The notes: a model not told the origin generated them from the letters alone. A stretch of 64,000 nt of DNA from a bacterium (GCA_022828125.1 JAJEJD010000012.1:193309-257308), one strand, 5' to 3'; positions 27,741-62,101 are shown, numbered from the stretch's first letter. Translations and numbers: made by a program.

Positions 27741-27862
27741 TGTGGGGCGACCACAGGGGTCGCCCCTACGAATTCCTGTAATATCACCGTAGGGGCGGAC
27801 CCGTGTGTCCGCCCGCTTTTCGTGCGTGATCGTCATTCCGGCGAAGGCCGGAATGACGATAC
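27741..27862. repeat. cluster of palindromic repeat units (R3 GTAGGGG-type x2, plus R2 GATCGTCATTCCGGCgaagGCCGGAATGACGAT)
   Basis: tgtggggcgaccacaggggtcgcccctac; gtaggggcggacccgtgtgtccgcccgc; gatcgtcattccggcgaaggccggaatgacgat. Confidence 0.8.
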
Positions 27863-27934
27863 TCAGCGCAAGGAATGGTATACGTGCGTCCCCTTCGTGC
27901 GCGCTCCTCTTCCACCTCGCGCCACCTGAAACCT

Positions 27935-27962
27935 TTGCGTGAATACCAAATTTTGGTATAAT
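27935..27962 (+). promoter_or_regulatory. sigma70-type promoter: -35 TTGCGT, 16 bp spacer, -10 TATAAT
   Basis: ttgcgtgaataccaaattttggtataat, followed by a GGAGG RBS and the parD ATG at 27984. Confidence 0.6.
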
Positions 27963-27983
27963 GGGCGCGAAGGAGGAATAACC

Positions 27984-28220
27984 ATGCCGAGAAATACGTC
28001 GGTTTCGCTCGGAGAGCACTTCGTGGGTTTCATCGACGAACGGGTCGCGTCGGGCCGCTACAACTCGGCGAGCGACGTGGTGCGCGCCGGACTGCGCCTG
28101 CTCGAAGAACACGAAGCCAGGGTGGAAGCCCTGCGCGAGGCGCTCATCGAAGGCGAGGAGTCCGGCCGGGCGACACCGTTTGATTTCGACGCGTTCATCG
28201 CCAGCAAGAAATCCACCTGA
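27984..28220 (+). CDS. parD: type II antitoxin, ParD/CopG ribbon-helix-helix family; no cognate toxin adjacent
   Basis: MPRNTSVSLGEHFVGFIDERVASGRYNSASDVVRAGLRLLEEHEARVEALREAL is a classic ParD sequence. Downstream is a repeat-filled intergenic region rather than parE. Confidence 0.75.
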   Translation: MPRNTSVSLGEHFVGFIDERVASGRYNSASDVVRAGLRLLEEHEARVEALREALIEGEESGRATPFDFDAFIASKKST

Positions 28221-28455
28221 ATGAGGTAGTCACATCTTCATTGTAGGGGACGCATACATGCGTCCCTTCGCCTTTGGCCGCCCAACCCACGGGGCGCATA
28301 TATACGCCCCCTGCAAGTGCTCACCGGAACCATGTCCACCCCTTCCCCATCACACCAAAGGGCGGTATCATGCCCGCAAAAATCGAGACGCAATCTTTTA
28401 CCGGGGACTTTTCGCTTTCGGGGCGATCCGGGAGCGCCGCAGGGAGGAAACATCC

Positions 28456-29199
28456 ATGAAGCTAAAGGACAAGGTCGCCATCGTCACGGGCGGCTCGCAG
28501 GGAATCGGCGAGGCCATCTGCCGCCGCTTCGCGGAAGAGGGCGCCAAGGTCGCGGTCGTGAACCGCACGGCGGAAACGGGAGAGGCGCTCGCCGCCGAGA
28601 TCGGCGATGCGGCCAAAGCGTTTCCGTGCGACGTATCGAAGAAGTCGGCGGTGGACGCCATGGTGGCCGACGTGGTGAACGCGTTCGGCACGGTGGACAT
28701 CCTCGTCGGCAACCACGGCATCATGATCAACAAGGAACTCGAGGCCTATTCCGAGCAGGAGTGGGACGACATCATCGACATTAATCTCAAGGGCAACTTC
28801 CTGCTGTCGCAGGCCATCGTGCCCATCATGAAAGAGAAGAGCTACGGGAAGATCATCTTCATGGCCTCCATCGCCGCGACGCACGCCTTCCCGAACGCGG
28901 TGCCCTACTGCGCGAGCAAGGGCGGGGTCTACATGATCACGCGCGCGCTGGCGGCGGAGATATCGAAGTGCGGCATCAACGTGAACTGCATCTCGCCGGG
29001 CAACACGGCCACGCCGCTGAACCAGCACTTACAGGACGACCCCGAGTTCGTGAAGCTCATGGCGAGCTACACGCCCACGGGCCGGGCCTACATCACGACG
29101 GCGGAGATGGCGGGCGCTGCGGTGTTCCTGGCGTCTGACGACGCGAGCGCGGTGCACGGCCTCGATCTCATCGTCGACGACGGCTGGTGCGCGATCTGA
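28456..29199 (+). CDS. SDR family oxidoreductase
   Basis: VAIVTGGSQGIGEA, NHGI, YCASKGG Tyr/Lys catalytic motif. AGGGAGG RBS. The ORF track start at 28258 is rejected. Confidence 0.85.
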   Translation: MKLKDKVAIVTGGSQGIGEAICRRFAEEGAKVAVVNRTAETGEALAAEIGDAAKAFPCDVSKKSAVDAMVADVVNAFGTVDILVGNHGIMINKELEAYSEQEWDDIIDINLKGNFLLSQAIVPIMKEKSYGKIIFMASIAATHAFPNAVPYCASKGGVYMITRALAAEISKCGINVNCISPGNTATPLNQHLQDDPEFVKLMASYTPTGRAYITTAEMAGAAVFLASDDASAVHGLDLIVDDGWCAI

Positions 29200-29219
29200 T
29201 CGCGGGCTGAAAAACCGAT

Positions 29220-30116
29220 ATGCCAGGCGCGCTCAAGTCCATCACGACTCCCGCGCTCGAAATCGGCTATCTGGAGGCGGGCGATGAAACCGCGCCGCCC
29301 GTGGTTCTCGTCCACGGCTTTCCCGACGATGCACGGACTTGGGATCGTGTCGTCCCGATTCTCAACGACGCAGGCTTCAGGACGCTTTGCCCCTACGTGC
29401 GCGGCTACGGCCCGACGCGGTTCCTGGACCCCGCGACGCCCAGAAGCGCGCAATATACGGCCATCGCTTCCGACATCACCGCCTTCGCCGACGCGCTGGA
29501 ACTCGAGCGCTTCACCTTGGTGGGCCACGACTGGGGTGCGCGGGCTTCTTATTGCATAGCCGCCATGCGGCCTGCGCGGCTGGACGCCTTGATCGTCAGC
29601 CCCGCGGGCTACGGCACGGGACGCCCTCAGCAGCGGATGTCCGTCGATCAGGTGCGCGCGTACTGGTACCAGTGGTTTTTCTGCACCGAGCGCGGCCGCG
29701 ATGCGCTAAGAGAGGACGCCGCGGGTTTTTGCCGCGAACTCTGGCGTGTATGGTCCCCAGGCTGGGATTTCTCGGACGCGGAATATGAAGCCACCGCGCG
29801 GTCATTCCTGAACCCCGACTTCGTGGATATCGTCATGCACTCCTACCGCTACCGGTGGGGGTATGAAGAGCCGGACCCCGAGTTCCAAGACGCGGAGAGC
29901 TTCATGGCGGGCCTGCCGGACATCTCCGTGCCGACAGTTATCGTGCAAGGCGCTGAGGACGGCGCCTCGCGTCCCGAGAGTTCCGAGGGCAAGGAGCGGC
30001 ATTTCACGGGCGGCTACCATAGGATTCTCGTGGAGGGCGCGGGCCACTTCGCCCAGCGCGAGAAGCCCGAAGCCTTCGCCGCCGCGATCCTCGAAATGGC
30101 GAAAAAGGATGGATAG
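29220..30116 (+). CDS. alpha/beta hydrolase (epoxide hydrolase-like)
   Basis: VVLVHGFPDDARTW, GHDWGA nucleophile motif. Confidence 0.75.
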   Translation: MPGALKSITTPALEIGYLEAGDETAPPVVLVHGFPDDARTWDRVVPILNDAGFRTLCPYVRGYGPTRFLDPATPRSAQYTAIASDITAFADALELERFTLVGHDWGARASYCIAAMRPARLDALIVSPAGYGTGRPQQRMSVDQVRAYWYQWFFCTERGRDALREDAAGFCRELWRVWSPGWDFSDAEYEATARSFLNPDFVDIVMHSYRYRWGYEEPDPEFQDAESFMAGLPDISVPTVIVQGAEDGASRPESSEGKERHFTGGYHRILVEGAGHFAQREKPEAFAAAILEMAKKDG

Positions 30117-30119
30117 CGC

Positions 30120-31001: not shown

Positions 31002-31043
31002 CCGGCGCGAGCCGGGTTGTAACAATCAAGGAGAAAACTGAAA

Positions 31044-31379: not shown

Positions 31380-31514
31380 GTCGGAGCGGGGCGAAGAGGG
31401 AGGTTTCGCCGTAGGGGCGGACCCGTGTGTCCGCCCGCATGTTGTTTTGATGGTGAACCCGTTTGTAGGGGTCGCATATGGGGTTGTAGAAAAAGCCTCC
31501 CTCCTCAGGGGATA

Positions 31515-31707
31515 AAGGCAACCCCCCCTACCCCCCCTTGTCAGGGGGGTAAGAAAAAGCAAAACCCCTTCCACCCGGCGGCGGGCAAGGAAAAGCAAAA
31601 TCCTCTCGGCCCGGCGGCGGGCGTCGTCTTTTTTTCATATCCCGTACTTGCCGGGGGGTCGGTCTTTTTTACCCCCCTGTTAAGGGGGGGTAGGGGGGGT
31701 TGCTTTT
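31515..31707. repeat. MITE-like element family R1, copy 2 (longer, with internal duplication)
   Basis: AAAGGCAACCCCCCCTACCCCCCCTTGTCAGGGGGG ... ACCCCCCTGTTAAGGGGGGGTAGGGGGGGTTGCTTTT. Confidence 0.8.
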
Positions 31708-31739
31708 CATGCAGGTAAGAGAGCAATCCAACTGAGTCC

Positions 31740-31767
31740 GTAGGGGCGGTTCGCGAACCGCCCCTAC
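31740..31767. repeat. perfect 28 bp palindrome GTAGGGGCGGTTCGCGAACCGCCCCTAC (family R3, GTAGGGG...CCCCTAC)
   Basis: Read directly. Related 28-mers GTAGGGGCGGACCCGTGTGTCCGCCCGC occur identically at 27789..27816 and 31411..31438. Confidence 0.85.
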
Positions 31768-31800
31768 AATTTCGTCCGCGCCGGAACCGAGACGGAACGC

Positions 31801-32694: not shown

Positions 32695-32715
32695 GAAGGG
32701 TTTGCTCCTTTGGGA

Positions 32716-33627
32716 TCAATAATTCGTATATAAAACGCATAAAAGCTGGTTCGCCAGTTCCGCGTTCCCCTCGACTTCGAGGCGGCCCGCGTCCTCCATG
32801 GCGCCGCGCTTCGCGCGCCCGTAGAGCAGGAGAAAGTGCGCCTCGCCGTCCGCGGTGATTATGGCGTCGTGCGCGCCGGACGTGTGGGCGGATTCCTCCG
32901 CCTTCTCGCCGGCGACGGTGATCGTCCACTCCCGGTCCGGCGTCTTCGAGCGGAACAGAAAGCGCCCGTCGAAGGGCGGGTTCTCGCGGACGCCGAAAAG
33001 ACGGCTCTGGCTCGCGGGGAGGAAGCTCATGACGCCCTCCAGGGCGTCTTCGGAGACGCCTGCCTCCGCGTCTTCCCCGTACCGGATGTCCCAGTCGTGC
33101 GCCACGAGTTCGACGAGGCGCAGCCCGATCCAGGCGTCGAGCCGCGTCAGCCCCCGGGGGTGAAAGCCGAGCTTGGCGATGTCGTCCGCCGTGACCTCCG
33201 CGAGCGTGTCGTTCACCCCGGCGGCCGAGGCGTCGAACGCGTCCATCATCTCATCGCGGGGCAGGGCCATGAGTTCATCGCCCCTGGCGGCGCGGATGGC
33301 GAAAAACTCCTTCACGTTGCTCCCGTAGGGGGGTTCGGGCGGCAGGCCCTCCAGGGCGCGGCGAATCGAGTTCGTGTAAAAATCCGCCCCCGTCGCCAGA
33401 TGGGAGACGGCGTGCTGCGCCTGCCAGCCGGGGCAGAACGTCTCCACCTCCCAGCGCGCGTCCGAAAAGCCGCGCCAGTAGGCCGAGAGACGCTCGGATT
33501 CGGATTTCACCAGGGCGACTCGGGAAAGTTGTTCTTCGGGACTCACGTGGACGCACCTCCGTCTCGCTGGATCGCGATATGTCTTTGAAGAAGAATTCCC
33601 CGCCCCATGAACGGGGAGAGACTTCAA
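32716..33627 (-). CDS. maleylpyruvate isomerase N-terminal domain (DinB_2/MDMPI-like) protein
   Basis: 303 aa ORF with weak similarity to the MDMPI_N-type helical bundle. Start uncertain (a GTG near 33555 is possible). Confidence 0.4.
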   Translation of the reverse strand: MKSLPVHGAGNSSSKTYRDPARRRCVHVSPEEQLSRVALVKSESERLSAYWRGFSDARWEVETFCPGWQAQHAVSHLATGADFYTNSIRRALEGLPPEPPYGSNVKEFFAIRAARGDELMALPRDEMMDAFDASAAGVNDTLAEVTADDIAKLGFHPRGLTRLDAWIGLRLVELVAHDWDIRYGEDAEAGVSEDALEGVMSFLPASQSRLFGVRENPPFDGRFLFRSKTPDREWTITVAGEKAEESAHTSGAHDAIITADGEAHFLLLYGRAKRGAMEDAGRLEVEGNAELANQLLCVLYTNY

Positions 33628-33760
33628 GTATCACGAAACCAGGGGCCGCTGGCAAGGGCCGCAAGCTGGCGGGGGGAGGGGGAGTTCTGCTAGGTTATGG
33701 CCTCGGTGCGAGGAGGCGGAATCTCTCATAAGCGCTCCTCTTTTCAGGAGACGGAAACCC

Positions 33761-36513: not shown

Positions 36514-36516
36514 GAG

Positions 36517-37341: not shown

Positions 37342-37522
37342 GGAGGGGCCGCCCTCGGTATACGCGTGAGTTCAGGATCGTCATTCCGGCGATTCGGCAG
37401 GGGTAATGGTAGGGACAACCCTCCGTGGTTGTCCTTTGCGGGATAGTTGCCGTCAGGACAGGCACGGAGGCCTGTCCCTACGGGGCGTCCCTCGATACGG
37501 CCCTCGCCGACTTCTCTCGTCG

Positions 37523-37648
37523 AAAGGCACCCCCCCCTACCCCCCCTTGTCAGGGGGGTATAAAAAGGCGATGCGCCCCCGCCGGGTTGAGGGGGTTTTG
37601 ATTTTTCTTACCCCCCTGACAAGGGGGGGTAGGGGGGGTTGATTTTCA
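37523..37648. repeat. MITE-like element family R1, copy 3 (core inverted relative to copies 1, 5 and 6)
   Basis: Same roughly 36 bp TIRs. Its core TATAAAAAGGCGATGCGCCCCCGCCGGG is the reverse complement of the copy 1 and copy 5 core. Confidence 0.8.
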
Positions 37649-37721
37649 AGCGGAGAGGGGCGTCCCCTCTACCCCATGAAAAGGGGGCTTTTTCAATTAT
37701 CCCTACCTCGTCGGAATCGAC

Positions 37722-40076: not shown

Positions 40077-40202
40077 AGGTCAAGTCCTCCTCGTCGGAAC
40101 ATCGCAAAACCAAACGAATGATGAGCTTCGCGTCATATGGCAGGGACAGGTTGCGGCCTGTCCCTACAGGGATTGTTGAAAAAATGTCCCTTGCCAGGGG
40201 AC

Positions 40203-40347
40203 AAAGGCAACCCCCCCTACCCCCCCTTGTCAGGGGGGTCTTTTTGTTGCTCCCCCTGTCGGGGGACCTTTTTCTTTTTACCACCCCCACCGTCAGAGCA
40301 TTGCTTTTTCATACCCCCCTGACAAGGGGGGGTAGGGGGGGTTGGTT
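40203..40347. repeat. MITE-like element family R1, copy 4 (divergent core)
   Basis: AAAGGCAACCCCCCCTACCCCCCCTTGTCAGGGGGG ... CCCCCCTGACAAGGGGGGGTAGGGGGGGTTGGTTTT. Confidence 0.8.
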
Positions 40348-40559
40348 TTCAAGGCGAGGAGGCGGACAAGGGCAGGACAGCCCCGAGGAAGGGCCGCCCC
40401 TACGCAGGACGATATGGTTTCGTGGCAGGAACGATCTCCTTTCGAGGTCATTCCCGCCCTGCTCGATTAACCCTCCAGGGGACAGGTCGCGACCTGTCCC
40501 TACAAAATCATCATCCTCCCCGCTCGGAACAATTCCCCCCTCTTCGGGGTTGTTGCAAA

Positions 40560-40848
40560 CCCGTGCTTGGATGATGCGGGAGGATTCGGTTCGGCCTCGA
40601 ACCCTCCCCCCGTTTTGCGTGGCCTGCCTCTCCGCCTCACCCTGAGCAGCGGCCCCTCGACTTCGCTCGGGACAGGCTCCGCCGTTGCCCGACGCCCCTC
40701 ACCCTGAGTAGCGGCAAAGCCGCGTATCGAAGGGGCCTGTCCTGAGCCTGTCGAAGGGCGAAATTCGCGCCCGCCGGAGAAATGCGCCCCCATCCTTCGA
40801 TACGGCGCTTGCGCGCCTACTCAGGATGAGGAATTGGCGCGCCTCACC
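40560..40848. repeat. repeat-rich intergenic segment with CTCACCCTGAG(C/T)AGCGG direct and inverted copies and a GACAGGCTC / GAGCCTGTC inverted pair
   Basis: cctcaccctgagcagcgg (40637), cctcaccctgagtagcgg (40698), ctactcaggatgagg (40819), gcctcaccctacctg (40841). Confidence 0.6.
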
Positions 40849-41844: not shown

Positions 41845-41940
41845 GGCAAAATGCAAATAATAATTCCCGAAAAATTCGATAAATATCGATAAATTCACGG
41901 GGTTTTTCGGTAAATTTCCGGCAATTTTTTAGAGGGGATA
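41845..41940. promoter_or_regulatory. AT-rich island (unusual in this GC-rich window) with a direct repeat TCGATAAAT-at-TCGATAAAT and flanking CCCGAAAAA/TTTTTCGG inverted arms, about 250 bp upstream of the QueG-like tandem genes
   Basis: gcaaataataattcccgaaaaattcgataaatatcgataaattcacggggtttttcggtaaatttccggcaatttttt. Confidence 0.35.
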
Positions 41941-42197
41941 TGACGCTTTTGCAGTGCGGCGCAGGAGCATTCTGCCATGACCCGCCGCGCCCGCGATGAC
42001 CGCAAATGCGGGGAAATGCGCATTCCGCGCAAAAGGGCACCGAACGGCCCATATGATGCGATTTTGCCTCATCGCGGCGTTGTGCTAGATTCAATCCATC
42101 CTCTCGAATGAAAACTCAGGCGTCAGGCGAATGCCGCGAGAGGACGAGCAGTTCCAGGTCAACGCACGGATCCGACAACGGAAACCCGAGGTTACAC

Positions 42198-44083: not shown

Positions 44084-44160
44084 TGTTGTAGGGGTCGCAC
44101 ATATGCGACCCGACTGGTTTGCGGCATGTGGGCCGCATATATGCGGCCCCTACACACAAA
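44084..44160. repeat. nested palindromes GTAGGGGTCGCACATATGCGACCC ... GGGCCGCATATATGCGGCCCCTAC (R3 type)
   Basis: Two adjacent 20 bp palindromes bounded by GTAGGGG / CCCCTAC. Confidence 0.8.
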
Positions 44161-44236
44161 TAACTTTTCCCTCTCCGGCTTTTTCAACAGCCCCTATGGG
44201 GCTTGTTGAAAAACCCCCTTGAAAGGGAAATCCCAT

Positions 44237-44360
44237 AAAGGCAACCCCCCCTACCCCCCCTTGTCAGGGGGGCAAGAAAAAGCAACCCCCCCTCAGCCCG
44301 GCGGGGGCGCATCGCCTTTTTATACCCCCCTGACAAGGGGGGGTAGGGGGGGTTGGTTTT
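44237..44360. repeat. MITE-like element family R1, copy 5
   Basis: Near-identical to copy 1, including the core CAAGAAAAAGCAACCCCCCCTCAGCCCGGCGGGGGCGCATCGCCTTTTTATA. Confidence 0.85.
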
Positions 44361-44459
44361 CCACGAGGGAGGTCGGGAGTTCGCGCGAACCCGAAGCAAG
44401 TCTCCGGAACCGCATCCTGACGCCGGGTCCGTGGACGGGTCCGCTGCGCGGGCCTGCTC

Positions 44460-45995: not shown

Positions 45996-46253
45996 GCGTG
46001 TTTTTTCGGCGCCGGGAAGGGCGGTTTCGACGCCGGGGCGTCCGGATCGGCCCAGGGAGGCGTATCGGGAGCTTGTCTTAAGCCTGTCGAGGGGGACGCG
46101 GGAAAACAGCTTTCCCGCCCCCGCTCGCCGTGAACCCTCCTTCCCTGAGGTTGTTGAAAAACCCCTGCTTTCGTCATTCTGCGTATAGAGCCAACCGGGG
46201 AAAGAGGAGACAACATTTCCCCCTTGAAGAGTGCCAACCAAACACTCCCCCCT

Positions 46254-46590
46254 TGAGGAGGCTGTTGAAAAAGTCACCCTTGGTCGGAATTGACCACCGC
46301 CGTCATTCCGGCGAAAGCCGGAATCCATTTTGACTTTTCACCGGGCGGGGCGATCACGACCTTTTTGTCGCGCGGCGCCGGGATGCGGAACCCAGAGAAT
46401 TCGCCTTTCGTTTTTGTGTTCGATTCCGATCCTCCCCGACCGGGCGTAAAGACGTCCGAACGAAGAGGCGAAAAGGCAAAGGCGAAAATGGATTCCGGCT
46501 TTCGCCGGAATGACGGCCAAAACCCGAAACCGGGCGGAGGCGCAGGTGTCACTTCCTCCTCGATGGACTTTTTCAACAAGCCCCCTCAAG
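46254..46590. repeat. composite mosaic repeat region: GTTGAAAAAG hairpin module, an inverted pair of 32 bp TCATTCCGGCGAAAGCCGGAATCC arms (46299..46331 and 46485..46518), and a GGCCAAAACCCGAAACCGGGCGGAGGCGCAGG module
   Basis: The modules recur in other intergenic regions (52136..52215, 61855..62000, 1240..1320, 50755..50790). Confidence 0.75.
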
Positions 46591-46754
46591 GGGGAAGTGA
46601 ATTCCCTCTCTCATGAATTGCGCCCGATCCTCAAGGGAGAGTGAAAAAACCCCAAGCATGAAGGGGTGATTCTGGAAAGGGATTTATGAATTGACCGGCA
46701 AGAAAAACTCGTCAACTTGAGTATATAATTCCCTTTCTTTCTCTGGAGCCTCTC

Positions 46755-47987: not shown

Positions 47988-48224
47988 AGCGACGCCCCCG
48001 AAACCCATGGGCGATGAAATTCGAAACAATTTCTTGTTCATCAATCCCGACAGGGAAGGAAGAATTCCCTCTCTCTTGAGGGAGTTTTTCAACAACTCCA
48101 TGATCGACAAGCTATTACTCGAACGCGGGCGCAGATTACCACCCGGAACGCGAATGGTCCGGTCTTGCAAGACTTGCAAAGCATACGGCCTTGCCCTATA
48201 TTCATTCCCAAAAGGGGATGAATT

Positions 48225-50501: not shown

Positions 50502-50805
50502 CTTTTCCCTGCGAGTTGAAGAAAATCAAATTTTCCATGTGTGCTTGACGTTTGAAGCACCCGGCTTCCCTTACCGCCTCACCTGATGAATCCATCGCCA
50601 TACGGATTCAGAAGCCGTCACCGATATGTTCATATTTGTCTTGGTAGCGGTGTAAGACTATTACGAATTCATCCAGCAAAACAAATGGAGAATGCAGGTA
50701 TATTGATCTGGAAACAGCCGATTTTCCGGGAATGGAAATAACCGACGGAACCGCCCACTGGGGGGCTGTTGAAAAAGTCCTGTCCGACCATCGAGATTGT
50801 TCGCC

Positions 50806-50904
50806 GTAGCAGGGACAGGCCTTTGCGCCTGTCCGAGGCCTCCGTGCCTGTCCTGCTCTTCGTGGTTGTCCTTCGTCAGGACAGGCACGGAGGCCTGTCC
50901 CTAC
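50806..50904. repeat. long inverted repeat of family R4 (GTAGGGACAGGCC...GGCCTGTCCCTAC)
   Basis: The right arm CAGGACAGGCACGGAGGCCTGTCCCTAC (50877..50904) is identical to 37444..37471. The left arm is its reverse complement with a 17 bp insertion. Smaller R4 units lie at 40138..40170, 40468..40500 and 62017..62050. Confidence 0.8.
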
Positions 50905-50982
50905 AAAACCATCACGTCTGCGCCGCGTGAACCTCCTTGCCGACGAGACCGCCCTCTGACGCCGGCTTTCACCCCCGAAGGA

Positions 50983-51861: not shown

Positions 51862-52221
51862 GATTTTCTCCTGTACTCAAAAAATCAGTGTCTTTCGATT
51901 ATCGGAAATTTGCGCGGCGACCGAGGACGCGCCGGCAAATCACCGGAGAACGAATTCAATCCACCATCAGCTTGCCCGGAGCCTCGAACACGGGCTCAGG
52001 GGCGGCGGGCATGCGGTTGACGCGGGCGCCAACCGCCTGTCTGAAGGCGTGGGCGACTACAGCGGCTGCGATCCTGACGCTTCGGGCATATCGTTGATGA
52101 GACTGCCACAGCCGGGCGAGCGCCCCCATCTTTCCCGCCTATTGGGGCTGTTGAAAAAGTCATCCCTGGTCGCAATGACGGCCAAAACCCGAACCCGGGC
52201 GGAGGCGCAAGCTGTCTCCTT

Positions 52222-52341
52222 GAAAACCAACCCCCCTACCCCCCTTGTCAGGGGGCAAGAAAAAGCAAAACCCTCTCGGCTCGGAGGGGGCGCATCGCCT
52301 TTTTATACCCCCCTGACAAGGGGGGGTAGGGGGGGTTGCCT
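52222..52341. repeat. MITE-like element family R1, copy 6
   Basis: GAAAACCAACCCCCCTACCCCCCTTGTCAGGGGG ... CCCCCCTGACAAGGGGGGGTAGGGGGGGTTGCCTTT, then ATCCCCTG. Confidence 0.8.
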
Positions 52342-52377
52342 TTATCCCCTGACAAAACGGGCTTTTTCAACAGCCCC

Positions 52378-53907
52378 CTATTCGGCGTCGGCTCCGCCGG
52401 TGATCCCGAGCCTCGCCGCCCGGAACATCGCGGCCATGCTGTAGACCGCCGTGATGAGGGAGAGCACGAGAATGGTCGCCGTGATGGGGCTGGAGAGGAG
52501 CGCCCACATGTCCCCGCCCGAGATCGTGAGCGCGCGGCTCAGGTTGATCTCGATAATCGGCCCCATGATGAACGCGAGCACGATGGGCACGACGGGAATG
52601 TTAATCTTCTCGAAGAAGTAGGCGAGTGCGCCCAGGATGAGCACCATGACGACGTGGGCCGTGTAGTTCGCGTACACGTAGCTGCCGACGACGATGAGGA
52701 TCAGGACGAACGGCCCCAGGATGCGGCGGGGCACCTTGGCGACCAGGCTGAAGGCGCGGGTGCCGACGAGTCCCGTGCAAAGGAGCATGAGGTTGATCAC
52801 GAAAAGGCCGATGAACACCGTCATCACGAACGTCCCGTTGTCCCGGAAGAGCAGCGGCCCGGGAACCAGTCCCTTGCTGATCAGCACGCCCAGCAGAATG
52901 GCCGCGCCGCCCGAACCCGGGATGCCGAGCGAGAGCGAGGGCACGAGCGTGCCTGCGACCAGGGCGTTGTTCGAACACTCGGGCGCGGCGACGCCCTCGA
53001 TGATGCCCGTGCCGAACTCCTCCGAGCGCTTCGACCACCGCCTCTCCTCGCTGTAGGCCAGCATGCCGGCGATGGAGCCGCCCGCTCCAGGAACCGCGCC
53101 GACACCCGTTCCGATCAGGCTCGCGCGAATCCATGTGGGGATGAGCCTGCGGACTTCCCACCGCTGAATCCGGTTGCGCTCATCGGCGGCGCCCTGGGCG
53201 GCGGTTTCCTTGCTCTCGATAGTGCGCCGGTGCTCCACCAGGAGGTTGAACGCCTCGGGCCCGGCCAGGAAGGCGATGATGACGACGACCAGCGGGATGC
53301 CGTCCATCAGATACCCCTGGTCAAAGGTGAACCGCAGTCCGCCGAAGCCCGAACTCCCGACCGTCGCCAGCAACAGCCCGATGCCCGTGGCGAGGAAACC
53401 GCGTGCGGCGTCTTTTCCGAAGAAGCTCGCCACGATCGACAGGCCGAACACGCCGACCGCGAATAATTCGCCCGGCCCGAACATCAGGGCGACGTTGCCG
53501 AGCGAGGTGCCTGCGATGATGAAGATCAGCGTGCTCGTGACGCCGCCGATGACGCCCGAGTAGAGGGAGATGCGCAGCGCCTTTCGCGCGAGACCGTTGC
53601 GGGTCATGGTGTAGCCGTCGAGCACGGTGACGGCGGACGCACCCGTCCCCGGCGTGCGGATCAGGATGGCCGGAATGGAGCTTCCGTATTCGACCCCCGA
53701 ATAGACGGCGAGGAAGAACATGGTCGCGTGCTCCACGGGCATCGTGAAGGTCAGGGGAAAAAGGAGGGCCAGCGCCTGGGAACTGCCGAAACCCGGCATG
53801 GCGCCCATGAGGACGCCGATGGCGACGCCCCCCAGCATGATCGCGAGAATGGCGGGCGAAGCGAGTTGGCCGGTCGCTGCGAATATGTGCCCGAGAGTTC
53901 CTTCCAT
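52378..53907 (-). CDS. tctA: tripartite tricarboxylate transporter permease TctA
   Basis: 509 aa polytopic protein with the TctA duplicated-domain pattern (GAMPGFGSSQALALL...). Confidence 0.8.
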   Translation of the reverse strand: MEGTLGHIFAATGQLASPAILAIMLGGVAIGVLMGAMPGFGSSQALALLFPLTFTMPVEHATMFFLAVYSGVEYGSSIPAILIRTPGTGASAVTVLDGYTMTRNGLARKALRISLYSGVIGGVTSTLIFIIAGTSLGNVALMFGPGELFAVGVFGLSIVASFFGKDAARGFLATGIGLLLATVGSSGFGGLRFTFDQGYLMDGIPLVVVIIAFLAGPEAFNLLVEHRRTIESKETAAQGAADERNRIQRWEVRRLIPTWIRASLIGTGVGAVPGAGGSIAGMLAYSEERRWSKRSEEFGTGIIEGVAAPECSNNALVAGTLVPSLSLGIPGSGGAAILLGVLISKGLVPGPLLFRDNGTFVMTVFIGLFVINLMLLCTGLVGTRAFSLVAKVPRRILGPFVLILIVVGSYVYANYTAHVVMVLILGALAYFFEKINIPVVPIVLAFIMGPIIEINLSRALTISGGDMWALLSSPITATILVLSLITAVYSMAAMFRAARLGITGGADAE

Positions 53908-53936
53908 CTATCACTGCCCTTCCATCGATTACGGCC

Positions 53937-54485: not shown

Positions 54486-54534
54486 GTCCGCGCCTTAATG
54501 ACGGCGGAACCTGCCGCCGTCCGCTCAAATCCAG

Positions 54535-55536
54535 CTACTTCTTGATGATATTGTGATCGATCATGAATTGTTTCACGACCGCCTGGTTCTTCGCCATGTC
54601 CTTGTTGAGCCACTCCGAGCCCGTCTTGACGTCCAGGACGATGTGCGTCCCCTTGGCGAGATAGTCCTTGTAGTCGGGCGAGCTGGTCACCTTGTACACG
54701 GCGTCTTCCAGTATTTTCATGACTTCCGGAGGCGTGCCCCGCTTGACCATGAGGCCCTGCCAGTGGAGCGGGAGGTCGTATTTGAGGCCGACTTCCACCG
54801 CGCTCCGGACGTTTTTCCAGATCGGGTCGTGCGAGAGGCGCTTGTGGGTCTGCGATACGAGCGGGCAGATGGTTCCCGCCTCGATGTGCGGCCGCCACGT
54901 GCGCGGCGAGGCCTGCCCGCTGGGAAGATGGCCGCCGAGTACGTCCTTCACCACGTTGCCGTCGCCCCGGTAGAAGATTGTCTTGACTTTGTCCCCGATG
55001 CCTGCGGCCTTTAAGAACGCGAGCTGATGACGGTGGTGGGTGGAGCCTCTCTTGTTGGAGCCCATCGACAGTTTGCCGGGGTTCTTCTTGGCGTAGGCGA
55101 CGAGATCCTCGAACGTCTTGATGCCGTACTTGTTGTTGCACTTCACCGCGACGCCGTAGACGTGCTTCTCGACCTGAGCCAGCGTCTGGAAGTCGTCGTA
55201 CGACCGCCTGTAGTGCGGCAGGTGGAAATACCCGTAGAAGCTCGCGCTGATGTGCATGATGATGTGCCCGTCGGCGGGCTTGCCCGAGACGTAGAGAACC
55301 GGCTCGTGCTGCGAGCCTCCGCTCTTGAAGGTCACCCGCATGGGAACGCCGAGCACTTTTGGAAACTCCTGGGCGAGAAGCTGGCACCAGACCGCCACGC
55401 TGGAGCCGGGCGAGGTGGTGCACACCAGTTCCATCGGCTTCGAGGGGAACTTCTTGGCTGCGAGAGCCGGAGCGGTCCACAAAACAAGAACGGCTACGAG
55501 AACAAGGATGCGTTTGAAGCTCGACATGGTATTCAC
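54535..55536 (-). CDS. tctC: tripartite tricarboxylate transporter substrate-binding protein TctC (Bug family)
   Basis: Signal peptide ...LWTAPALAAKKFPSKPMELVC and Bug-family length. Confidence 0.75.
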   Translation of the reverse strand: MNTMSSFKRILVLVAVLVLWTAPALAAKKFPSKPMELVCTTSPGSSVAVWCQLLAQEFPKVLGVPMRVTFKSGGSQHEPVLYVSGKPADGHIIMHISASFYGYFHLPHYRRSYDDFQTLAQVEKHVYGVAVKCNNKYGIKTFEDLVAYAKKNPGKLSMGSNKRGSTHHRHQLAFLKAAGIGDKVKTIFYRGDGNVVKDVLGGHLPSGQASPRTWRPHIEAGTICPLVSQTHKRLSHDPIWKNVRSAVEVGLKYDLPLHWQGLMVKRGTPPEVMKILEDAVYKVTSSPDYKDYLAKGTHIVLDVKTGSEWLNKDMAKNQAVVKQFMIDHNIIKK

Positions 55537-55851
55537 TCCTTCAAGGGGTGGGTATGAACGGGGCAGGTAACGACCCCCACTTCTCAGGGTGATAGGTATG
55601 ATTCACGATACCATTTCTCGGTAAAATTCACAAATAGGCGTTTTCGGACCGCCGTTTCGCATGCGTCGGAGCGCTTCGCCACCGGAACGAACTCCATGTC
55701 GAAGCGCGCAGCGAATGGCCTGTTCGGGGTGCAAAAGTCCTTCGAATCCTGTCTAATGTCGACATCATGAAAATCCCGAAGCGCGAAGGACCCCGAAGAG
55801 CCTGAGAGGAATTGCGGCTTTCCGCTAAAGAACAACCGGAGGCATTCATCC

Positions 55852-57518: not shown

Positions 57519-57527
57519 GGAGGGCCG

Positions 57528-58721: not shown

Positions 58722-58783
58722 CGCCTCGATGAACGTCTCAGAGCGAGACGGACTTCGCCAAAGTCTTTTCCAGGCCGCCCGGG

Positions 58784-59176: not shown

Positions 59177-59518
59177 TTTCTTGATTTCTCCTCTGCGCCA
59201 AAGTCAACACCGTATATTCAGCCGCACTCCCCTCCCTGCCACCTTTCAAACCGCGCACTGCGCAAAAACCCGACCGAACCTTCAAGCCTGCAATCGGAGG
59301 GGAATCGCCATCCTGTGTGTATTTCACCATATGCAGGGTAAGGAGAATCGATTACGGGAGCAAGGTGACGAAAGACCTGAATTCAAAATAGAATCATCAA
59401 TTCGCCGAGTGCGAGTCCGAGACCAGGGAACACGCCGCTTGAACGGCTCCCCCGCCCCGGCTTTACATTGCGGCGTATGAGCCCGGCTATCGACTTTACT
59501 TCCTGAAGGAGACCGAGA

Positions 59519-59944
59519 ATGCCGAAACAGATCGAATGTGTGGACTGGCCCGACAGGCTCGACGTCTGGACGCCCTACTCGATGGCCATCAAGGCGAGCG
59601 GGGGGACGACCGTCTATTTCGCGGGCGTCACGGCCGCGCCGCCCTATCACCACCACCCCCACCGGCCAGAGGAGTTCGACACGCTGCCGGACGATCTGCC
59701 CACCCAGACGCGCATGGCCCTCGAGAACTTGAAGAAAAGCCTCGATGCCGTGGGCGGGGCGTTCAGCGACATCGTCTTCTTCCAGTTCTTCTCGACGACG
59801 ATGGAGGGCGCCGAGGAGGCGGGGGCCATCCGTAAGGAGTATTTCGGCGACCATCGGACCGCCTCCACCACGCTTCAGGTCGTGCGCCTCGCCACCGACC
59901 CCAGGTGCCTAGTGGAGGTCAACGCGATAGCGGTCGTGGATTGA
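59519..59944 (+). CDS. RidA/YjgF family protein
   Basis: 141 aa; VYFAGVTA...RTASTTLQVVRLATDPRCLVEVNAIAV has the RidA C-terminal signature. Confidence 0.65.
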   Translation: MPKQIECVDWPDRLDVWTPYSMAIKASGGTTVYFAGVTAAPPYHHHPHRPEEFDTLPDDLPTQTRMALENLKKSLDAVGGAFSDIVFFQFFSTTMEGAEEAGAIRKEYFGDHRTASTTLQVVRLATDPRCLVEVNAIAVVD

Positions 59945-60096
59945 GGAGGACCCTCGGCCATTTTCCGGGGCGCGGCGCGAGCATATGATCGCCATTTTTT
60001 CATTGCCCGCTCCCGCCGCTCTCGGCTATCATCCCGTCTGGTCAAACGAGGACATACGAGGACGACTCGAGGCGCACCTACCCTTCACCCCGGGGA

Positions 60097-60978
60097 ATGG
60101 AGCGTCATACCCAACCCAGAGGAGCCACGGCGGTGGACATCATCAACGAAGTCGGCGCAACCGCATTTTTCGTATCCTCCATCCGCGCCATGGAGAAGAA
60201 GCAGGAACACAAGCTGTTCGACGACCCTTACGCGGCGTGGTTCGTGAACGAGGAAATCGAGGGAAAGGTGCAAGAGCAGATAGAAGTTTTTCCGCCCTCG
60301 AGGGAGCTGGTGCGTTTTCGGGTTTGCGTCATGAGCGAGGTCGTCGAGCGCGCCATCGCGGACGGCGTGAAGCAGATCGTCTCGCTCGGCGCGGGCTTCG
60401 ACATGCGCGCCCACATCTATCAGACCGAGGGCGTCCGGTTCTGCGACGTCGACCAGCCTGCGGTCCTGCAGTTCAAGAACAAGGTGCTCGAAGCAGGCGG
60501 CGTCACGCCCTGCGCCGGGATCGAGTGCAATTACCTGGAAGTCGACCTGCCCCGGGAACTCCGCCAGGCGGGTTTCGACCTCGAAGCGCCCATCCTGTTC
60601 ATATGGGAAGGCAACACCATGTACCTCCCGCTCACACTTATCCATGACTTCCTCGATAAAATGCGCACGCAGGTTCCCAACATGACCATCGCTTTCGATT
60701 ATCTCTCCGAAAAGGTGATCAACCGCACCTCGGGTGATGAGAGAATCAGCGAATTCACGGACCTTTTTGAAAGCAACTTCGGGGTGAAATGGGTGACGGG
60801 CTTCGACGACCTCTCCGTTCTGACGGAAAAACACGGCCTCGAAGTAGTGAAATCTGAAAGCCTCCTGGAAGTCGGCGAGCGGCGCGCACCGGAATCCGCA
60901 GCGGCCATCGAGGAGTTTATGGACGTCACGGCCGACCTGTTGAAACTCTACTCCTACTGCGTCCTCAAGGCGGCCTGA
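60097..60978 (+). CDS. class I SAM-dependent methyltransferase (LCM/Ppm1-like O-methyltransferase family), paralog 1
   Basis: DDPYAAWFV..., IVSLGAGFDMRA, PILFIWEGNTMYLP are typical of LCM-family methyltransferases. Confidence 0.7.
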   Translation: MERHTQPRGATAVDIINEVGATAFFVSSIRAMEKKQEHKLFDDPYAAWFVNEEIEGKVQEQIEVFPPSRELVRFRVCVMSEVVERAIADGVKQIVSLGAGFDMRAHIYQTEGVRFCDVDQPAVLQFKNKVLEAGGVTPCAGIECNYLEVDLPRELRQAGFDLEAPILFIWEGNTMYLPLTLIHDFLDKMRTQVPNMTIAFDYLSEKVINRTSGDERISEFTDLFESNFGVKWVTGFDDLSVLTEKHGLEVVKSESLLEVGERRAPESAAAIEEFMDVTADLLKLYSYCVLKAA

Positions 60979-60983
60979 GTTCC

Positions 60984-61826
60984 ATGGACATCAACGAAAT
61001 CGGCGCGACCGCGTTCGTCATTTCCTGCATGCGGGCGATGGAAAAAGACCAGGAGCACAAGCTGTTCGACGACCCCTACGCGGCGTGGTTCGTCAACGAG
61101 GCGATAGAGGAGAAGGTCCAGGAACTGATACGCGTTTTCCCGCCCTCGGTGGAACTGGTTCGTTTCCGGGTTCGGGTCATGAGCGAGGTCGTCGAGCGCG
61201 GCATCGAGGACGGCGTGAAGCAGATCGTCTCTTTGGGCGCGGGCTTCGACATGCGCGCCCATATCTATCAGACCGAAGGCGTGAGGTTCTGCGATGTCGA
61301 TCAACCGGCGGTGGTCGAATTCAAGAACAAGGTGCTCGAAACCCACGGCGTCACGCCCTGCCCCGGAATCGAGTGCAACTACCTGGAAGTCGACCTCCCG
61401 GGAAAACTCGCCGAGGCGGGCTTCGACCTCGAAGCCCCCATCCTGTTCATATGGGAAGGCAACACCATGTACCTGCCGCTCGACCTGATTCATGATTTCC
61501 TGAGTCGATTGCGCGCGCGCATTCCGCGCCTGGCCATCGCCTTCGATTATTACTCCGAAAAGATCATCAACCGCACGTCCGGCGATGAGAGGATCACCGA
61601 AATCACGGATATGTTCGAAAGCAACTTCGGGGTGAAATGGGTGACGGGTTTCGACGACCTCTCCGTGTTCCAGGAAAAACACGGCCTCGAAGCAATCGAA
61701 TCCGAAAGCCTCATGGAGTTCGGCGAGCGCCACGCGCCGCAGTCCGTGGCGGCTGTCAAAGAGTATATGGGCCAGGCGGCCGACCTGTTGAAACTGTATT
61801 CCTACTGCGTGCTCAAGGCGTCGTGA
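60984..61826 (+). CDS. class I SAM-dependent methyltransferase (LCM-like), paralog 2 (tandem duplicate)
   Basis: About 75-80% amino acid identity to the upstream gene, with runs above 90% nucleotide identity (for example 60390..60445 versus 61230..61285). Confidence 0.7.
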   Translation: MDINEIGATAFVISCMRAMEKDQEHKLFDDPYAAWFVNEAIEEKVQELIRVFPPSVELVRFRVRVMSEVVERGIEDGVKQIVSLGAGFDMRAHIYQTEGVRFCDVDQPAVVEFKNKVLETHGVTPCPGIECNYLEVDLPGKLAEAGFDLEAPILFIWEGNTMYLPLDLIHDFLSRLRARIPRLAIAFDYYSEKIINRTSGDERITEITDMFESNFGVKWVTGFDDLSVFQEKHGLEAIESESLMEFGERHAPQSVAAVKEYMGQAADLLKLYSYCVLKAS

Positions 61827-62101
61827 ACTTTACGTCCACCCCGGCGGCGCTTCTAAAAAGCTTGGACTTAGAAATCACTCCCCTCTTGAGGGGGTTGTTG
61901 AAAAACCCCATCGCAGAGGAAGTGACGCCTCCGCCTCCGCCCGGTTTCGGGTCTTGGCCGTCATTCCGGCCGAGGATGACTTTTTCAACAGCCCCTTGAG
62001 AGGGAAAAGGCCACACGAGAAAAAGCAGGGACAGGTCGCGACCTGTCCCTGCCAGAAACGCAAAATTCGACGATATCTAAAACAAGCTTACCGCCAGATT
62101 C

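What the first reader, a model, noticed from the sequence alone, without database searches (positions are those of the whole stretch)
27741..62050. Several further families of intergenic palindromic repeats forming mosaic (BIME-like) arrays
- R3 is GTAGGGG(N)CCCCTAC-type. It includes identical 28-mers at 27789..27816 and 31411..31438, a perfect 28 bp palindrome at 31740..31767, and nested palindromes at 44084..44160 and 28240..28320.
- R4 is GTAGGGACAGG...CCTGTCCCTAC, at 37444..37471, 40138..40170, 40468..40500, 50806..50904 and 62017..62050.
- R2 is TCATTCCGGCGAA(A/G)GCCGGAATGA, at 27828..27860, 46299..46331 and 46485..46518, with partials at 37374, 52172 and 61950.
- A shared module GGCCAAAACCCGAAACCGGGCGGAGGCGCAGG occurs at 1288, 46508 and 52180, and inverted at 61915.
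- Nearly every intergenic gap longer than 150 bp in the second half of the window is built from combinations of these modules.
Basis: seen in the sequence. Interest (0 to 1): 0.6.

Follow-up and report, generated by a model that had tools for sequence, protein, structure and literature searches.

The report
GTAG- and CGTC-tagged REP repeat arrays
The intergenic palindromes are real and belong to two already described kinds of bacterial "REP" hairpin repeats (GTAG-tagged, linked to a RAYT transposase, and CGTC-tagged), here found in an uncultured Nitrospinota-like lineage, so they are new members of a known kind, not a new system.

Summary
All cited repeats exist (a few coordinates are slightly off), lie outside genes and are far above chance. 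About half of the units form inverted doublets with the tags outside (REPIN-like), most often with a 21-23 nt spacer. R2 is a CGTC-tagged REP: CGTC, the 8-bp stem ATTCCGGC, a 4-nt loop and a CCA tail, often in inverted dimers. In 697 kb from related MAGs these motifs are 16-70 times denser in non-coding DNA, and the order of modules is not fixed, so the arrays are true mosaics. The claim about "nearly every gap >150 bp" is overstated: 7 of 14 gaps carry these families, and the divergent promoter gaps checked have none. No RAYT gene is in the window or in the 697 kb from related MAGs. However, REP-anchored metagenome loci yielded six RAYT-like ORFs carrying R3/R4-type REPs, one in a contig syntenic with relatives of the window's genome. 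Best reading: non-autonomous REP/REPIN elements spread by a RAYT acting in trans, plus CGTC REPs with no known transposase. They are BIME-like in layout only. Novelty: new member of a known kind.

The parts
27745..27814 (.). Two GTAG-tagged REPs with the tags facing inward (tail-tail), 19 nt apart. One is at 27745-27769 on the - strand (GTAGGGGCGACCCCTGTGGTCGCCCC). The other is at 27789-27814 on the + strand (R3a, GTAG+GGGCGGAC+CCGTGT+GTCCGCCC).
   Evidence: DNA fold -9.9 kcal/mol, z -3.8; the only Rfam sub-threshold hit here is a spurious miRNA-hairpin match
27831..27858 (.). R2: a symmetric CGTC-tagged REP, CGTC ATTCCGGC GAAG GCCGGAAT GACG.
   Evidence: I16; -15.1 kcal/mol, z -8.7
28243..28314 (.). 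GTAG REP doublet with the tags outside (REPIN-like). R3b is at 28243-28266 on the + strand (GTAGGGGACGCATACATGCGTCCC). A degenerate partner is at 28291-28314 on the - strand, with tag GCAG.
   Evidence: 3 related copies in the loci
31411..31436 (+). R3a GTAG REP, identical to the unit at 27789-27814.
31465..31489 (+). Truncated R3b-type GTAG unit (GTAGGGGTCGCATATGGGGTTGTAG).
31740..31767 (.). Doubly tagged symmetric GTAG REP (GTAGGGGCGGTTCGCGAACCGCCCCTAC).
   Evidence: I15; -13.9 kcal/mol; the same 28-mer occurs in IMG/VR contigs
37379..37390 (+). R2 left arm only (CGTCATTCCGGC), a truncated CGTC REP.
37409..37481 (.). GTAG REP doublet with the tags outside. R4v is at 37409-37434 on the + strand (stem GGACAACC). 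R4a is at 37456-37481 on the - strand (stem GGACAGGC). Both have the loop CTCCGT. The whole doublet folds as one long hairpin.
   Evidence: -28 kcal/mol, z -9.2; the same doublet occurs in 39-40% GC contigs
40140..40167 (.). R4 palindrome, GCAGGGACAGGTTGCGGCCTGTCCCTAC.
40372..40403 (-). Degenerate R3-type GTAG unit (reverse complement GTAGGGGCGGCCCTTCCTCGGGGCTGTCCTGCCC).
40478..40503 (-). R4b unit, GTAGGGACAGGTCGCGACCTGTCCCC on the - strand.
   Evidence: (I14)
44088..44153 (.). GTAG REP doublet with the tags outside (R3b type), with units at 44088-44111 (+) and 44130-44153 (-) and an 18-nt spacer.
   Evidence: -21.9 kcal/mol, z -4.9
46301..46515 (.). Long head-to-head dimer of CGTC REPs (R2), with the CGTC tags outside. 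The 46301-46331 unit shows the full format CGTC+ATTCCGGC+GAAA+GCCGGAAT+CCA. The roughly 155-nt interior is conserved. The dimer is part of a repeated unit of about 346 nt (46249-46594).
   Evidence: (L104 90% over 337 nt)
46523..46544 (+). The 'shared module' CCCGAAACCGGGCGGAGGCGCA. Other copies are at 1289-1310 and 52188-52209 on the + strand and 61930-61951 on the - strand.
   Evidence: (D9, D15, D20)
50806..50904 (.). Cluster of R4 units, with a perfect 20-nt inverted repeat at 50836-50855 / 50877-50896. The orthologous site in the closest MAG holds a single doubly tagged R4.
   Evidence: I4; -34.7 kcal/mol, z -8.0
61959..61970 (+). R2 left arm followed by a degenerate remainder.
62025..62052 (.). 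R4b perfect palindrome with degenerate tags (GCAGGGACAGGTCGCGACCTGTCCCTGC).
   Evidence: I6; -13.9 kcal/mol, z -6.5

Best explanation
R3 and R4 are GTAG-tagged REPs, that is, repetitive extragenic palindromes. Each unit is an unpaired 5' GTAG followed by an 8-9 bp G+C-rich hairpin. Units occur singly, as inverted doublets with the tags outside (REPIN-type), as doubly tagged symmetric palindromes and in clusters. R2 is a CGTC-tagged REP of the CGTC-1 format.

Inferred mechanism:
- On single-stranded DNA the GTAG hairpins are recognised and cut by a HUH/Y1 transposase of the RAYT family, which is encoded once elsewhere in the genome.
- This enzyme copies the doublets in trans into intergenic DNA, preferentially next to existing hairpins.
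- Local duplication, slippage and recombination between modules then build and reshuffle the mosaic arrays.
- The CGTC elements spread by an unknown enzyme.
- Once in place, the hairpins probably act on 3' ends of transcripts. This last step was not tested.

Shown here: anatomy, tags, covariation, copy number, extragenic bias, doublet organisation, turnover between orthologous sites, and physical linkage of the same REP types to RAYT-like genes in related and unrelated contigs.

Inferred only: that a RAYT is present in this particular genome and that it is what moves these copies.
For: - **Tags.** Among perfect hairpins (stem of at least 7 bp) in non-coding DNA of 93 related loci, GTAG precedes 131 and CGTC 45 of 1562. 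About 6 would be expected per tetranucleotide. In the window GTAG precedes 8 of 162.
- **Stem covariation.** 33 distinct units were chosen without looking at the 3' arm. They are 94.7% paired against 80.8% in shuffles, and 5 of 8 pairs show changes on both sides. No shuffle or slid register reached the observed values.
- **Extragenic bias.** Motif density is 16-70 times higher in non-coding than in coding DNA.
- **Position between genes.** GTAG units per kb: 1.55 in convergent, 1.08 in unidirectional and 0.70 in divergent gaps. CGTC units follow the same order.
- **Doublets.** 43 pairs have the tags outside, against 9 with tags inside and 8 tandem. The commonest spacer is 21-23 nt. Doublets fold as long hairpins.
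- **CGTC format.** 70 full units have an 8-bp stem beginning with AT. Nearly all loops are 4 nt. The tail is CCA in 50 of 70. There are 29 long head-to-head dimers. This matches the description in PMC3733652.
- **Turnover.** Orthologous gaps between genes about 90% identical carry different module sets.
- **RAYT link.**
  - Six of 120 loci anchored on the R4a REP encode RAYT-like ORFs.
  - The four ORFs scanned pass the Pfam cut-off for PF01797.
  - Their best NCBIfam match is NF047646, REP-associated tyrosine transposase.
  - JGI names homologues RayT.
  - All six carry R3a, R3b or R4a REPs in or next to the gene.
  - One of them, L308, is syntenic at 95% with L102 and at 88-89% with L101. 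L101 belongs to the MAG closest to the window.
- **Assembly breaks.** Short-read contigs of the same organism end inside the arrays.
Against: - No RAYT or TIRYT homologue is in the window or in 697 kb of related MAG loci. This was tested with tblastn, phmmer, a motif search, 24 published RAYT/TIRYT queries and a profile HMM.
- None of the RAYT homologues that I traced comes from the window's own sample. Presence in this genome is therefore unproven.
- No clean cut-and-paste insertion of a single GTAG doublet with an intact empty site was found. The differences seen are replacements, expansions and tandem duplications.
- The related loci were all anchored on another repeat (R1), so densities there are biased towards repeat-rich gaps.
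- Gene calls in the loci are heuristic.
- No transposase is known for CGTC REPs, and none turned up here.
Confidence: 0.78

Rival explanations
1. The hairpins are primarily transcription terminators or 3'-end mRNA stabilisers. On this view they are kept by selection at gene ends and are not mobile elements.
For: - Units are densest between convergent genes and least dense in divergent promoter gaps.
- In phage contigs the R4b palindrome sits right after convergent stop codons.
- The hairpins are stable.
- Terminator-like sites are enriched in 36-53 kb, 32 against 15.6 +/- 4.3 expected.
Against: - None of the terminator-like hits is an R2, R3 or R4 unit. They are R1 and T modules, and R2-R4 lack a T tail on either strand.
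- Near-identical 26-28-mers at many unrelated loci and in hosts of 30-70% GC are not expected for independently evolved terminators.
- Linkage to RAYT genes and the inverted-doublet organisation point to a mobile origin.
- The two views are not exclusive. A role at 3' ends may be secondary.
Confidence: 0.12
2. The arrays are conventional MITEs, that is, deletion derivatives of DDE insertion sequences with terminal inverted repeats and target-site duplications. The palindromes would then be their ends.
For: - The R2 long dimers (132-240 nt) look like terminal inverted repeats around a conserved interior and occur in both orientations.
- Many arrays are bounded by inverted copies of CTGTTGAAAAAG.
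- An extra segment of about 440 nt in L060 relative to L049 is bounded by direct copies of GACTTTTTCAACAACCCC.
Against: - No consistent short target-site duplication was seen.
- No DDE transposase lies near any copy.
- The units are 24-28 nt single hairpins with a conserved unpaired tetranucleotide, which is the REP signature and not a MITE end.
- The 18-nt direct repeat is itself a repeat module, so recombination explains it equally well.
Confidence: 0.07
3. The repeats are chance palindromes of a G+C-rich genome or assembly artefacts.
For: - The genome is 62-64% G+C.
- Short-read assemblies break at these sites.
Against: - The shuffle tests exclude chance.
- The same arrays are present in independent ENA and Logan assemblies.
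- The same families occur in MAGs that include complete chromosomes.
Confidence: 0.01

Closest known systems
GTAG-tagged REPs and REPINs mobilised by RAYTs (Di Nocera et al. 2013, PMC3733652; Bertels and Rainey REPIN concept, PMC3337134; RAYT groups, PMC5581495)
   Same: - An unpaired 5' GTAG followed by a 6-13 bp stem.
- Sub-families that differ by complementary stem changes.
- Degenerate tags such as GCAG.
- Mostly head-to-head doublets.
- Extragenic position, favouring convergent and unidirectional gaps.
- Several families coexisting in one genome.
- The same REP types found at RAYT-like genes.
   Different: - The host is an uncultured lineage deposited as Nitrospinota, Nitrospinaceae or simply 'bacterium', not Proteobacteria.
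- Many units are doubly tagged perfect palindromes (GTAG...CTAC).
- The REP sequences are nearly invariant across contigs of 30-70% GC.
- In the linked RAYT clade a REP copy lies in frame inside the transposase gene just after the HUH motif, rather than only flanking it.
- I could not match the stems to one of the 24 published GTAG families, because the figure with the consensus sequences is not held.
CGTC-tagged REPs, family CGTC-1 (Di Nocera et al. 2013; includes Neisseria dRS3 and Rickettsia RPE-6)
   Same: - CGTC tag.
- 8-bp stem starting with AT.
- 4-nt loop.
- CCA tail.
- Head-to-head dimers.
- No associated transposase.
- Interleaving with other repeat families in mosaic intergenic regions, as in Neisseria.
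   Different: - The stem here is ATTCCGGC.
- Dimers have long spacers of 132-240 nt with a conserved interior, whereas the paper gives 20-100 bp for most REP dimers (stated in its GTAG section).
- The exact format is also found in 62 IMG/VR stretches of 38-71% GC.
E. coli BIMEs (bacterial interspersed mosaic elements)
   Same: Intergenic arrays are built from REPs in alternating orientation combined with other short conserved modules.
   Different: BIMEs are defined by E. coli Y and Z REP types and a fixed set of linker motifs, and some bind IHF or gyrase (from my own knowledge of the BIME literature). None of these motifs was looked for here. Here the order of modules is not fixed and the partner modules (R1, T, Mod) are lineage-specific.

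Membership tests
GTAG-tagged REP / REPIN | Short (20-40 bp) stem-loop with an unpaired GTAG (or degenerate GYRG) at one end | tested here: met
   13 intergenic units in the window. GTAG is the second commonest tetranucleotide before hairpins in the related loci, at 131 of 1562.
GTAG-tagged REP / REPIN | Sub-families with complementary stem changes, so that the structure is conserved and not the sequence | tested here: met
   5 of 8 pairs have changes on both sides. 94.7% of cells are paired against 80.8% in shuffles.
GTAG-tagged REP / REPIN | High copy number and overwhelmingly extragenic location | tested here: met
   194 non-coding against 22 coding units in 761 kb. Motif density is 16-70 times higher outside genes. 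The sample is biased and no whole genome was read.
GTAG-tagged REP / REPIN | Inverted doublets separated by a short spacer | tested here: met
   43 tag-outside pairs (commonest spacer 21-23 nt) against 9 tag-inside and 8 tandem. Window examples: 37409-37481 and 44088-44153.
GTAG-tagged REP / REPIN | A RAYT gene in the same genome, flanked by the cognate REP | tested here: inconclusive
   None was found in the window or in 697 kb of related MAG loci. One is present, with an R3b REP 76 nt upstream and one inside the gene, in L308/L316. L308 is syntenic with L101 (88-89%) and L102 (95%), and L101 belongs to the MAG closest to the window. The source genome itself was not searchable.
GTAG-tagged REP / REPIN | Cleavage and mobilisation of the REP by the RAYT | not testable with these tools
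   This needs biochemistry or population data.
CGTC-tagged REP (CGTC-1) | CGTC tag, 8-bp stem starting with AT, 4-nt loop | tested here: met
   70 full units have the stem ATTCCGGC. The main loops are GAAA, GCAT, GAAT and GTAT, as described in PMC3733652.
CGTC-tagged REP (CGTC-1) | Short unpaired 3' tail, mostly CCA | tested here: met
   The tail is CCA in 50 of 70 units. In 14 more the tail is GACG, which makes the unit a symmetric palindrome.
CGTC-tagged REP (CGTC-1) | Predominantly head-to-head dimers, with no linked transposase | tested here: met
   29 long dimers with CGTC outside. No transposase lies next to any copy.
E. coli-type BIME | Y/Z REP types alternating with the defined linker motifs; IHF or gyrase binding | not tested
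   Only the general mosaic layout is shared. The E. coli motifs were not looked for, and protein binding cannot be tested here.
MITE | Terminal inverted repeats plus a target-site duplication of fixed length, and a parent insertion sequence | tested here: inconclusive
   Structures like terminal inverted repeats exist (R2 long dimers, T module). No consistent duplication and no parent element were seen.
Intrinsic (Rho-independent) terminator | G+C-rich hairpin followed by a T run | tested here: not met
   No R2, R3 or R4 unit is among the 32 terminator-like sites. Those are R1 and T modules.
Known structured RNA (Rfam) | Match to a curated covariance model | tested here: not met
   No hit at gathering score. 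The only sub-threshold hit is a spurious miRNA-hairpin match.

The most novel reading that the evidence does not exclude
The GTAG REPs seen here (R3a, R3b, R4a, R4v) belong to a cosmopolitan REPIN-RAYT system with two unusual properties.

- Its 26-nt REP sequence stays almost unchanged in hosts from about 30% to 70% G+C, where it forms G+C-rich islands in A+T-rich genomes.
- Its transposase gene carries an in-frame copy of its own REP just after the catalytic HUH motif.

This would imply repeated horizontal spread, or very strong recognition constraints. It would also allow self-targeting or autoregulation of the RAYT by its own substrate. I found neither property described in the papers I read for Proteobacterial REPIN-RAYT systems, which are described there as mostly vertically inherited.
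Probability: 0.3. Interest if true: 0.6.

Novelty: new member of a known kind. Interest (0 to 1): 0.35.

Why it matters
- It extends REP and REPIN biology to an uncultured, apparently REP-rich lineage outside the Proteobacteria, in which GTAG and CGTC super-families and at least two other repeat types share the same intergenic arrays.
- These arrays fragment short-read assemblies of this organism. They also create spurious ORFs, so recognising them improves assembly and annotation of such MAGs.
- The side observations are testable leads on how RAYTs and their REPs co-evolve. These are the near-invariant REP sequence across very different hosts and the REP copy inside the RAYT reading frame.

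Tried and rejected
- **Rfam.** Gathering and E-value modes gave nothing relevant. There are no tRNA genes.
- **CRISPR.** Rejected, because the copies are not regularly spaced. No cas genes appear among the Pfam-annotated genes of the parts of the window covered.
- **Integron attC sites.** Rejected, because the flanking genes are ordinary metabolic genes on both strands, with no integrase among those annotated.
- **Terminators.** Rejected as the identity of R2-R4.
- **RAYT in the window or related MAG loci.** Five approaches were all negative. IMG/VR loci were also negative.
- **RAYT in the window's own sample.** I traced five close RAYT homologues, and all come from other samples.
- **Literature search for the repeat sequences themselves.** No relevant paper was found.
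- **Assignment to a numbered GTAG family.** Not possible, because the figure with the consensus sequences is not held.
- **Clean empty-site against filled-site pair for one GTAG doublet.** Only replacements, expansions and tandem duplications were found.
- **Chance in the first viral scan.** By my own rough estimate, which depends on a guessed size for the IMG/VR collection, some single hits of the 18-base R4 pattern could be chance. Only recurrent exact variants were used as evidence.

Full report
**Source and setting**

The window is a 62-64% G+C stretch of ordinary metabolic genes. It has no tRNA genes and no Rfam family at gathering score. Exact protein look-ups place it in metagenome assemblies ERZ23491425 and ERZ23491403 (KELL22-1) and in Logan assemblies of SRR16351694 and SRR16351695. 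Two short-read contigs of the same organism (L002, L007) end inside the repeat arrays. That is a first sign that the arrays are repeated genome-wide.

**Check of the observation**

- The two 28-mers are identical, and 31740-31767 is a perfect palindrome.
- The 'nested palindromes' are pairs of inverted hairpins.
- Corrections:
  - The R4 site given as 37444-37471 is a doublet at 37409-37481.
  - The 32-nt module is complete only near 46515.
  - Three R2 'partials' are single arms or a remnant.
- Dinucleotide-preserving shuffles exclude chance:
  - GTAGGGACAGG gave 8 hits against 0.62 expected.
  - CGTCATTCCGGC gave 6 against 1.0.
  - A tag-plus-hairpin pattern gave 4 against 0.02.
- All hits fall in non-coding gaps.
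- The claim that nearly every gap over 150 bp in the second half is built from these modules is too strong. By my tally from the gene calls and the motif map:
  - 7 of 14 such gaps contain R2, R3, R4 or the module;
  - 2 more contain only a different module (T);
  - the divergent promoter gaps 33547-33760, 55528-55851 and 59177-59518 contain none.

**Anatomy**

I asked which tetranucleotide precedes each maximal perfect hairpin with a stem of at least 7 bp. In the window the top tags are:

- CTAC, 10 hairpins (this belongs to another family, R1, outside this finding);
- GTAG, 8 hairpins.

CGTC precedes two hairpins, the two arms of the R2 dimer at 46301-46515.

R3 and R4 both read GTAG followed by an 8-9 bp stem.

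- An 8-bp stem with a 6-nt loop of the form CNNNGT. Stems seen: GGGCGGAC, GGACAGGC, GGACAACC, GGGCGGCC.
- A 9-bp stem around an AT or AC centre. Stems seen: GGGNCGCAT, GTCGGACAT.
- Symmetric, doubly tagged palindromes around TCGCGA.

R2 reads CGTC ATTCCGGC GAAA/GAAG GCCGGAAT, followed by CCA or, in the symmetric form, GACG. All units are stable as single-stranded DNA, and doublets fold into long hairpins.

**Census in related genomes**

My one genome scan used the core of the R1 family as a neutral anchor. They come from MAGs deposited as Nitrospinota, Nitrospinaceae or simply 'bacterium', including complete chromosomes. Locus L074, from MAG JAJDYR01, is syntenic with window 43.6-52.0 kb at 92-96% identity.

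- Every array of the window has multiple matches in these loci.
- Among non-coding hairpins there, GTAG precedes 131 and CGTC 45 of 1562. About 6 would be expected per tag.
- Motif densities are 16-70 times higher in non-coding than in coding DNA.
- Tagged units allowing one stem mismatch: 194 non-coding against 22 coding.
- Of 177 merged units:
  - 43 pairs have the tags outside, with a commonest spacer of 21-23 nt;
  - 9 pairs have the tags inside;
  - 8 pairs are tandem;
  - 16 units are symmetric.
- GTAG units per kb: 1.55 in convergent, 1.08 in unidirectional and 0.70 in divergent gaps. CGTC units follow the same order.
- Units of the 6-nt-loop format were selected without regard to the 3' arm. 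They gave 33 distinct sequences that are 94.7% paired (80.8% in shuffles). Five of eight pairs changed on both sides, and no slid register came close.
- Of 70 full CGTC units, nearly all have 4-nt loops and 50 have a CCA tail. 29 long dimers carry CGTC on the outside.

Caveats: the loci are anchored on a repeat, so they over-sample repeat-rich gaps, and the gene calls are heuristic.

**Mosaic, not fixed order**

- Labelling all modules shows many different combinations and orientations. Only the internal pairs are constant (R1 with R1, R2 with R2, R4 with R4).
- The 'shared module' is rare, with 11 sites in 697 kb.
- That module resembles the stretch between an R3a 3' arm and an R2 arm, at 75% identity over 40 nt (D20).
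- Orthologous gaps between genes about 90% identical carry different module sets in different genomes.
- Where the window has the 99-nt R4 cluster at 50806-50904, the closest MAG has a single doubly tagged R4.
- L060 has an extra segment of about 440 nt relative to L049. It holds an R4b unit, an R2 long dimer and a T module, and it is bounded by direct copies of an 18-nt module.
- Smaller differences are tandem duplications of half-hairpins.

So the arrays turn over fast. I did not find a clean single-doublet insertion next to an intact empty site.

**Comparison with the literature**

Di Nocera et al. (PMC3733652) define two REP super-families by exactly these tags.

- *GTAG REPs:* 6-13 bp stems, complementary stem variants, degenerate tags and mostly head-to-head dimers. 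They lie mainly between convergent and unidirectional genes and are linked to RAYT genes.
- *CGTC REPs:* 8-9 bp stems starting with AT, 4-5 nt loops, CCA tails and head-to-head dimers. No transposase is known for them. In Neisseria they occur in mosaic regions mixed with other repeats.

R3 and R4 fit the first description, and R2 fits the CGTC-1 format feature by feature.

**The RAYT question**

- The window and the 93 related loci contain no RAYT. I tested this in several ways:
  - E. coli RayT by tblastn and phmmer;
  - a search for genes bracketed by REPs;
  - a HUH-Tyr motif search;
  - 24 RAYT and TIRYT sequences from the paper's supplement, used singly and as a profile.
- I then used the one metagenome scan on the R4a unit (GTAGGGACAGGCCNCNGTGCCTGTCC).
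- The same profile found six RAYT-like ORFs there.
  - The four ORFs scanned pass the Pfam cut-off for Y1_Tnp.
  - Their best NCBIfam model is the REP-associated tyrosine transposase, at 57-66 bits against a cut-off of 80 and well above the IS200 model.
  - Of 3469 homologues with E of 1e-10 or better, many are named RayT by JGI.
- All six carry a GTAG REP of the R3a, R3b or R4a type inside the reading frame, just after the HUH strand.
- L308 also has an R3b REP 76 nt upstream of its start codon.
- L308 is syntenic at 95% with L102 and at 88-89% with L101. L101 belongs to the MAG closest to the window.
- In L308 the RAYT cassette occupies a gap that holds other modules in those two genomes.
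- Close homologues sit in different housekeeping contexts. None comes from the window's own sample.

So the REP types of the window are RAYT-linked, and a RAYT exists in the lineage. Its presence in this particular genome remains an inference.

**Alternatives**

- *Terminators.* R2-R4 are not intrinsic terminators. None is among the 32 terminator-like sites in 36-53 kb, which are R1 and T modules. A role at transcript 3' ends remains possible but was not tested.
- *MITEs.* A MITE reading is weakly suggested by the R2 long dimers and the inverted T modules. It lacks target duplications and a parent element.
- *Chance or artefact.* Both are excluded.

**Breadth**

- The exact R2 format occurs in 62 IMG/VR stretches of 38-71% G+C.
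- The symmetric R3 format occurs in 11 stretches.
- The exact R4b 28-mer occurs in several phage contigs of 44-58% G+C. These encode tail, terminase and Rha genes, and a near-identical copy lies in a 40% G+C contig that encodes a Mu-type portal.
- R4a units occur unchanged as G+C-rich islands in contigs of 30-40% G+C. In L198 and L253 they even form the same R4a/R4v doublet as window 37409-37481.

**Verdict**

The finding is real and correctly sensed as a mosaic of palindromic repeat families. It belongs to known kinds: GTAG-tagged REP/REPIN elements and CGTC-tagged REPs. It is BIME-like in layout only. It is a new member of a known kind and of moderate interest. Two side observations are worth following up: the REP copy inside the RAYT gene, and the near-invariance of the REP sequence across very different hosts.

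Noticed in passing
L308 3886-4515; also L257, L242, L305, L307, L286, L316, L317: RAYT-like genes of this clade carry an in-frame copy of a GTAG REP 10-20 residues after the HUH motif (for example RDAYMRPL, encoded by GGGACGCATATATGCGTCCCCTAC). REP-derived 6-mers occur in 22 of the 120 closest homologues, down to 61% identity, so the insert is old.
   Followed up: partly
L198, L253 and other loci among L196-L315: The 26-nt R4a REP occurs unchanged as a G+C-rich island in contigs of 30-40% G+C. It even forms the same R4a/R4v doublet as window 37409-37481. This suggests horizontal spread or very strong sequence constraint.
   Followed up: partly
L013, L015, L016, L023 (exact); L017, L022 (one base different); IMG/VR contigs: The 28-mer GTAGGGACAGGTCGCGACCTGTCCCTAC lies in phage-like contigs of 40-58% G+C that encode a tail hub, a terminase, a Mu-type portal and Rha. 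In several of them it sits directly after convergent stop codons.
   Followed up: partly
window 1313-1455, 31512-31723, 37513-37662, 40201-40365, 44235-44376, 52218-52359: The R1 family (CCCCCCTGACAAGGGGGGGTAGGGGGGG in inverted pairs) is the most abundant repeat. Its hairpin is followed, not preceded, by GTAG. GGGGGGGTAGGGGGGG could form a G-quadruplex. It is probably the subject of another finding.
   Followed up: partly
window 44177-44229, 46236-46275, 46563-46595, 48066-48098, 50762-50782, 52143-52160, 52359-52378, 61871-61909, 61975-62006: The T module is a short CCCCC-TTGA-GGGGG hairpin joined to CTGTTGAAAAAG (or its complement CTTTTTCAACAG). It often bounds the arrays in inverted orientation and scores as terminator-like on one strand.
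   Followed up: partly
window 40600-40840 and 41862-42020: Two further repeated segments. The first is a G+C-rich segment with motifs CACCCTGAG...TCGAAGGG...CTCAGGATGAGG, matched up to 15 times in the related loci. The second is an A+T-rich segment upstream of the gene at 42108, matched up to 14 times.
   Followed up: no
window 27984-28220; L049 2006-2299; L060 3317-3610: Small regulatory genes are bracketed by GTAG REPs. One is a ParD-like antitoxin with no adjacent toxin gene. The others are small ORFs of about 98 residues that I did not annotate.
   Followed up: no
window 60133-60978 and 60984-61826: Tandem paralogous genes with the LCM methyltransferase domain (PF04072), 84% identical over 300 nt.
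   Followed up: no
L002 (end near window 46470) and L007 (end near window 1470): Short-read contigs of the same organism end inside the repeat arrays, so these repeats fragment assemblies of this lineage.
   Followed up: yes
L308 3737-3845 and 4563-4668: The RAYT cassette is followed by a roughly 107-nt diverged direct copy (about 85% identity) of its left flank, which includes the start of the neighbouring gene. The origin of this duplication is unexplained.
   Followed up: no
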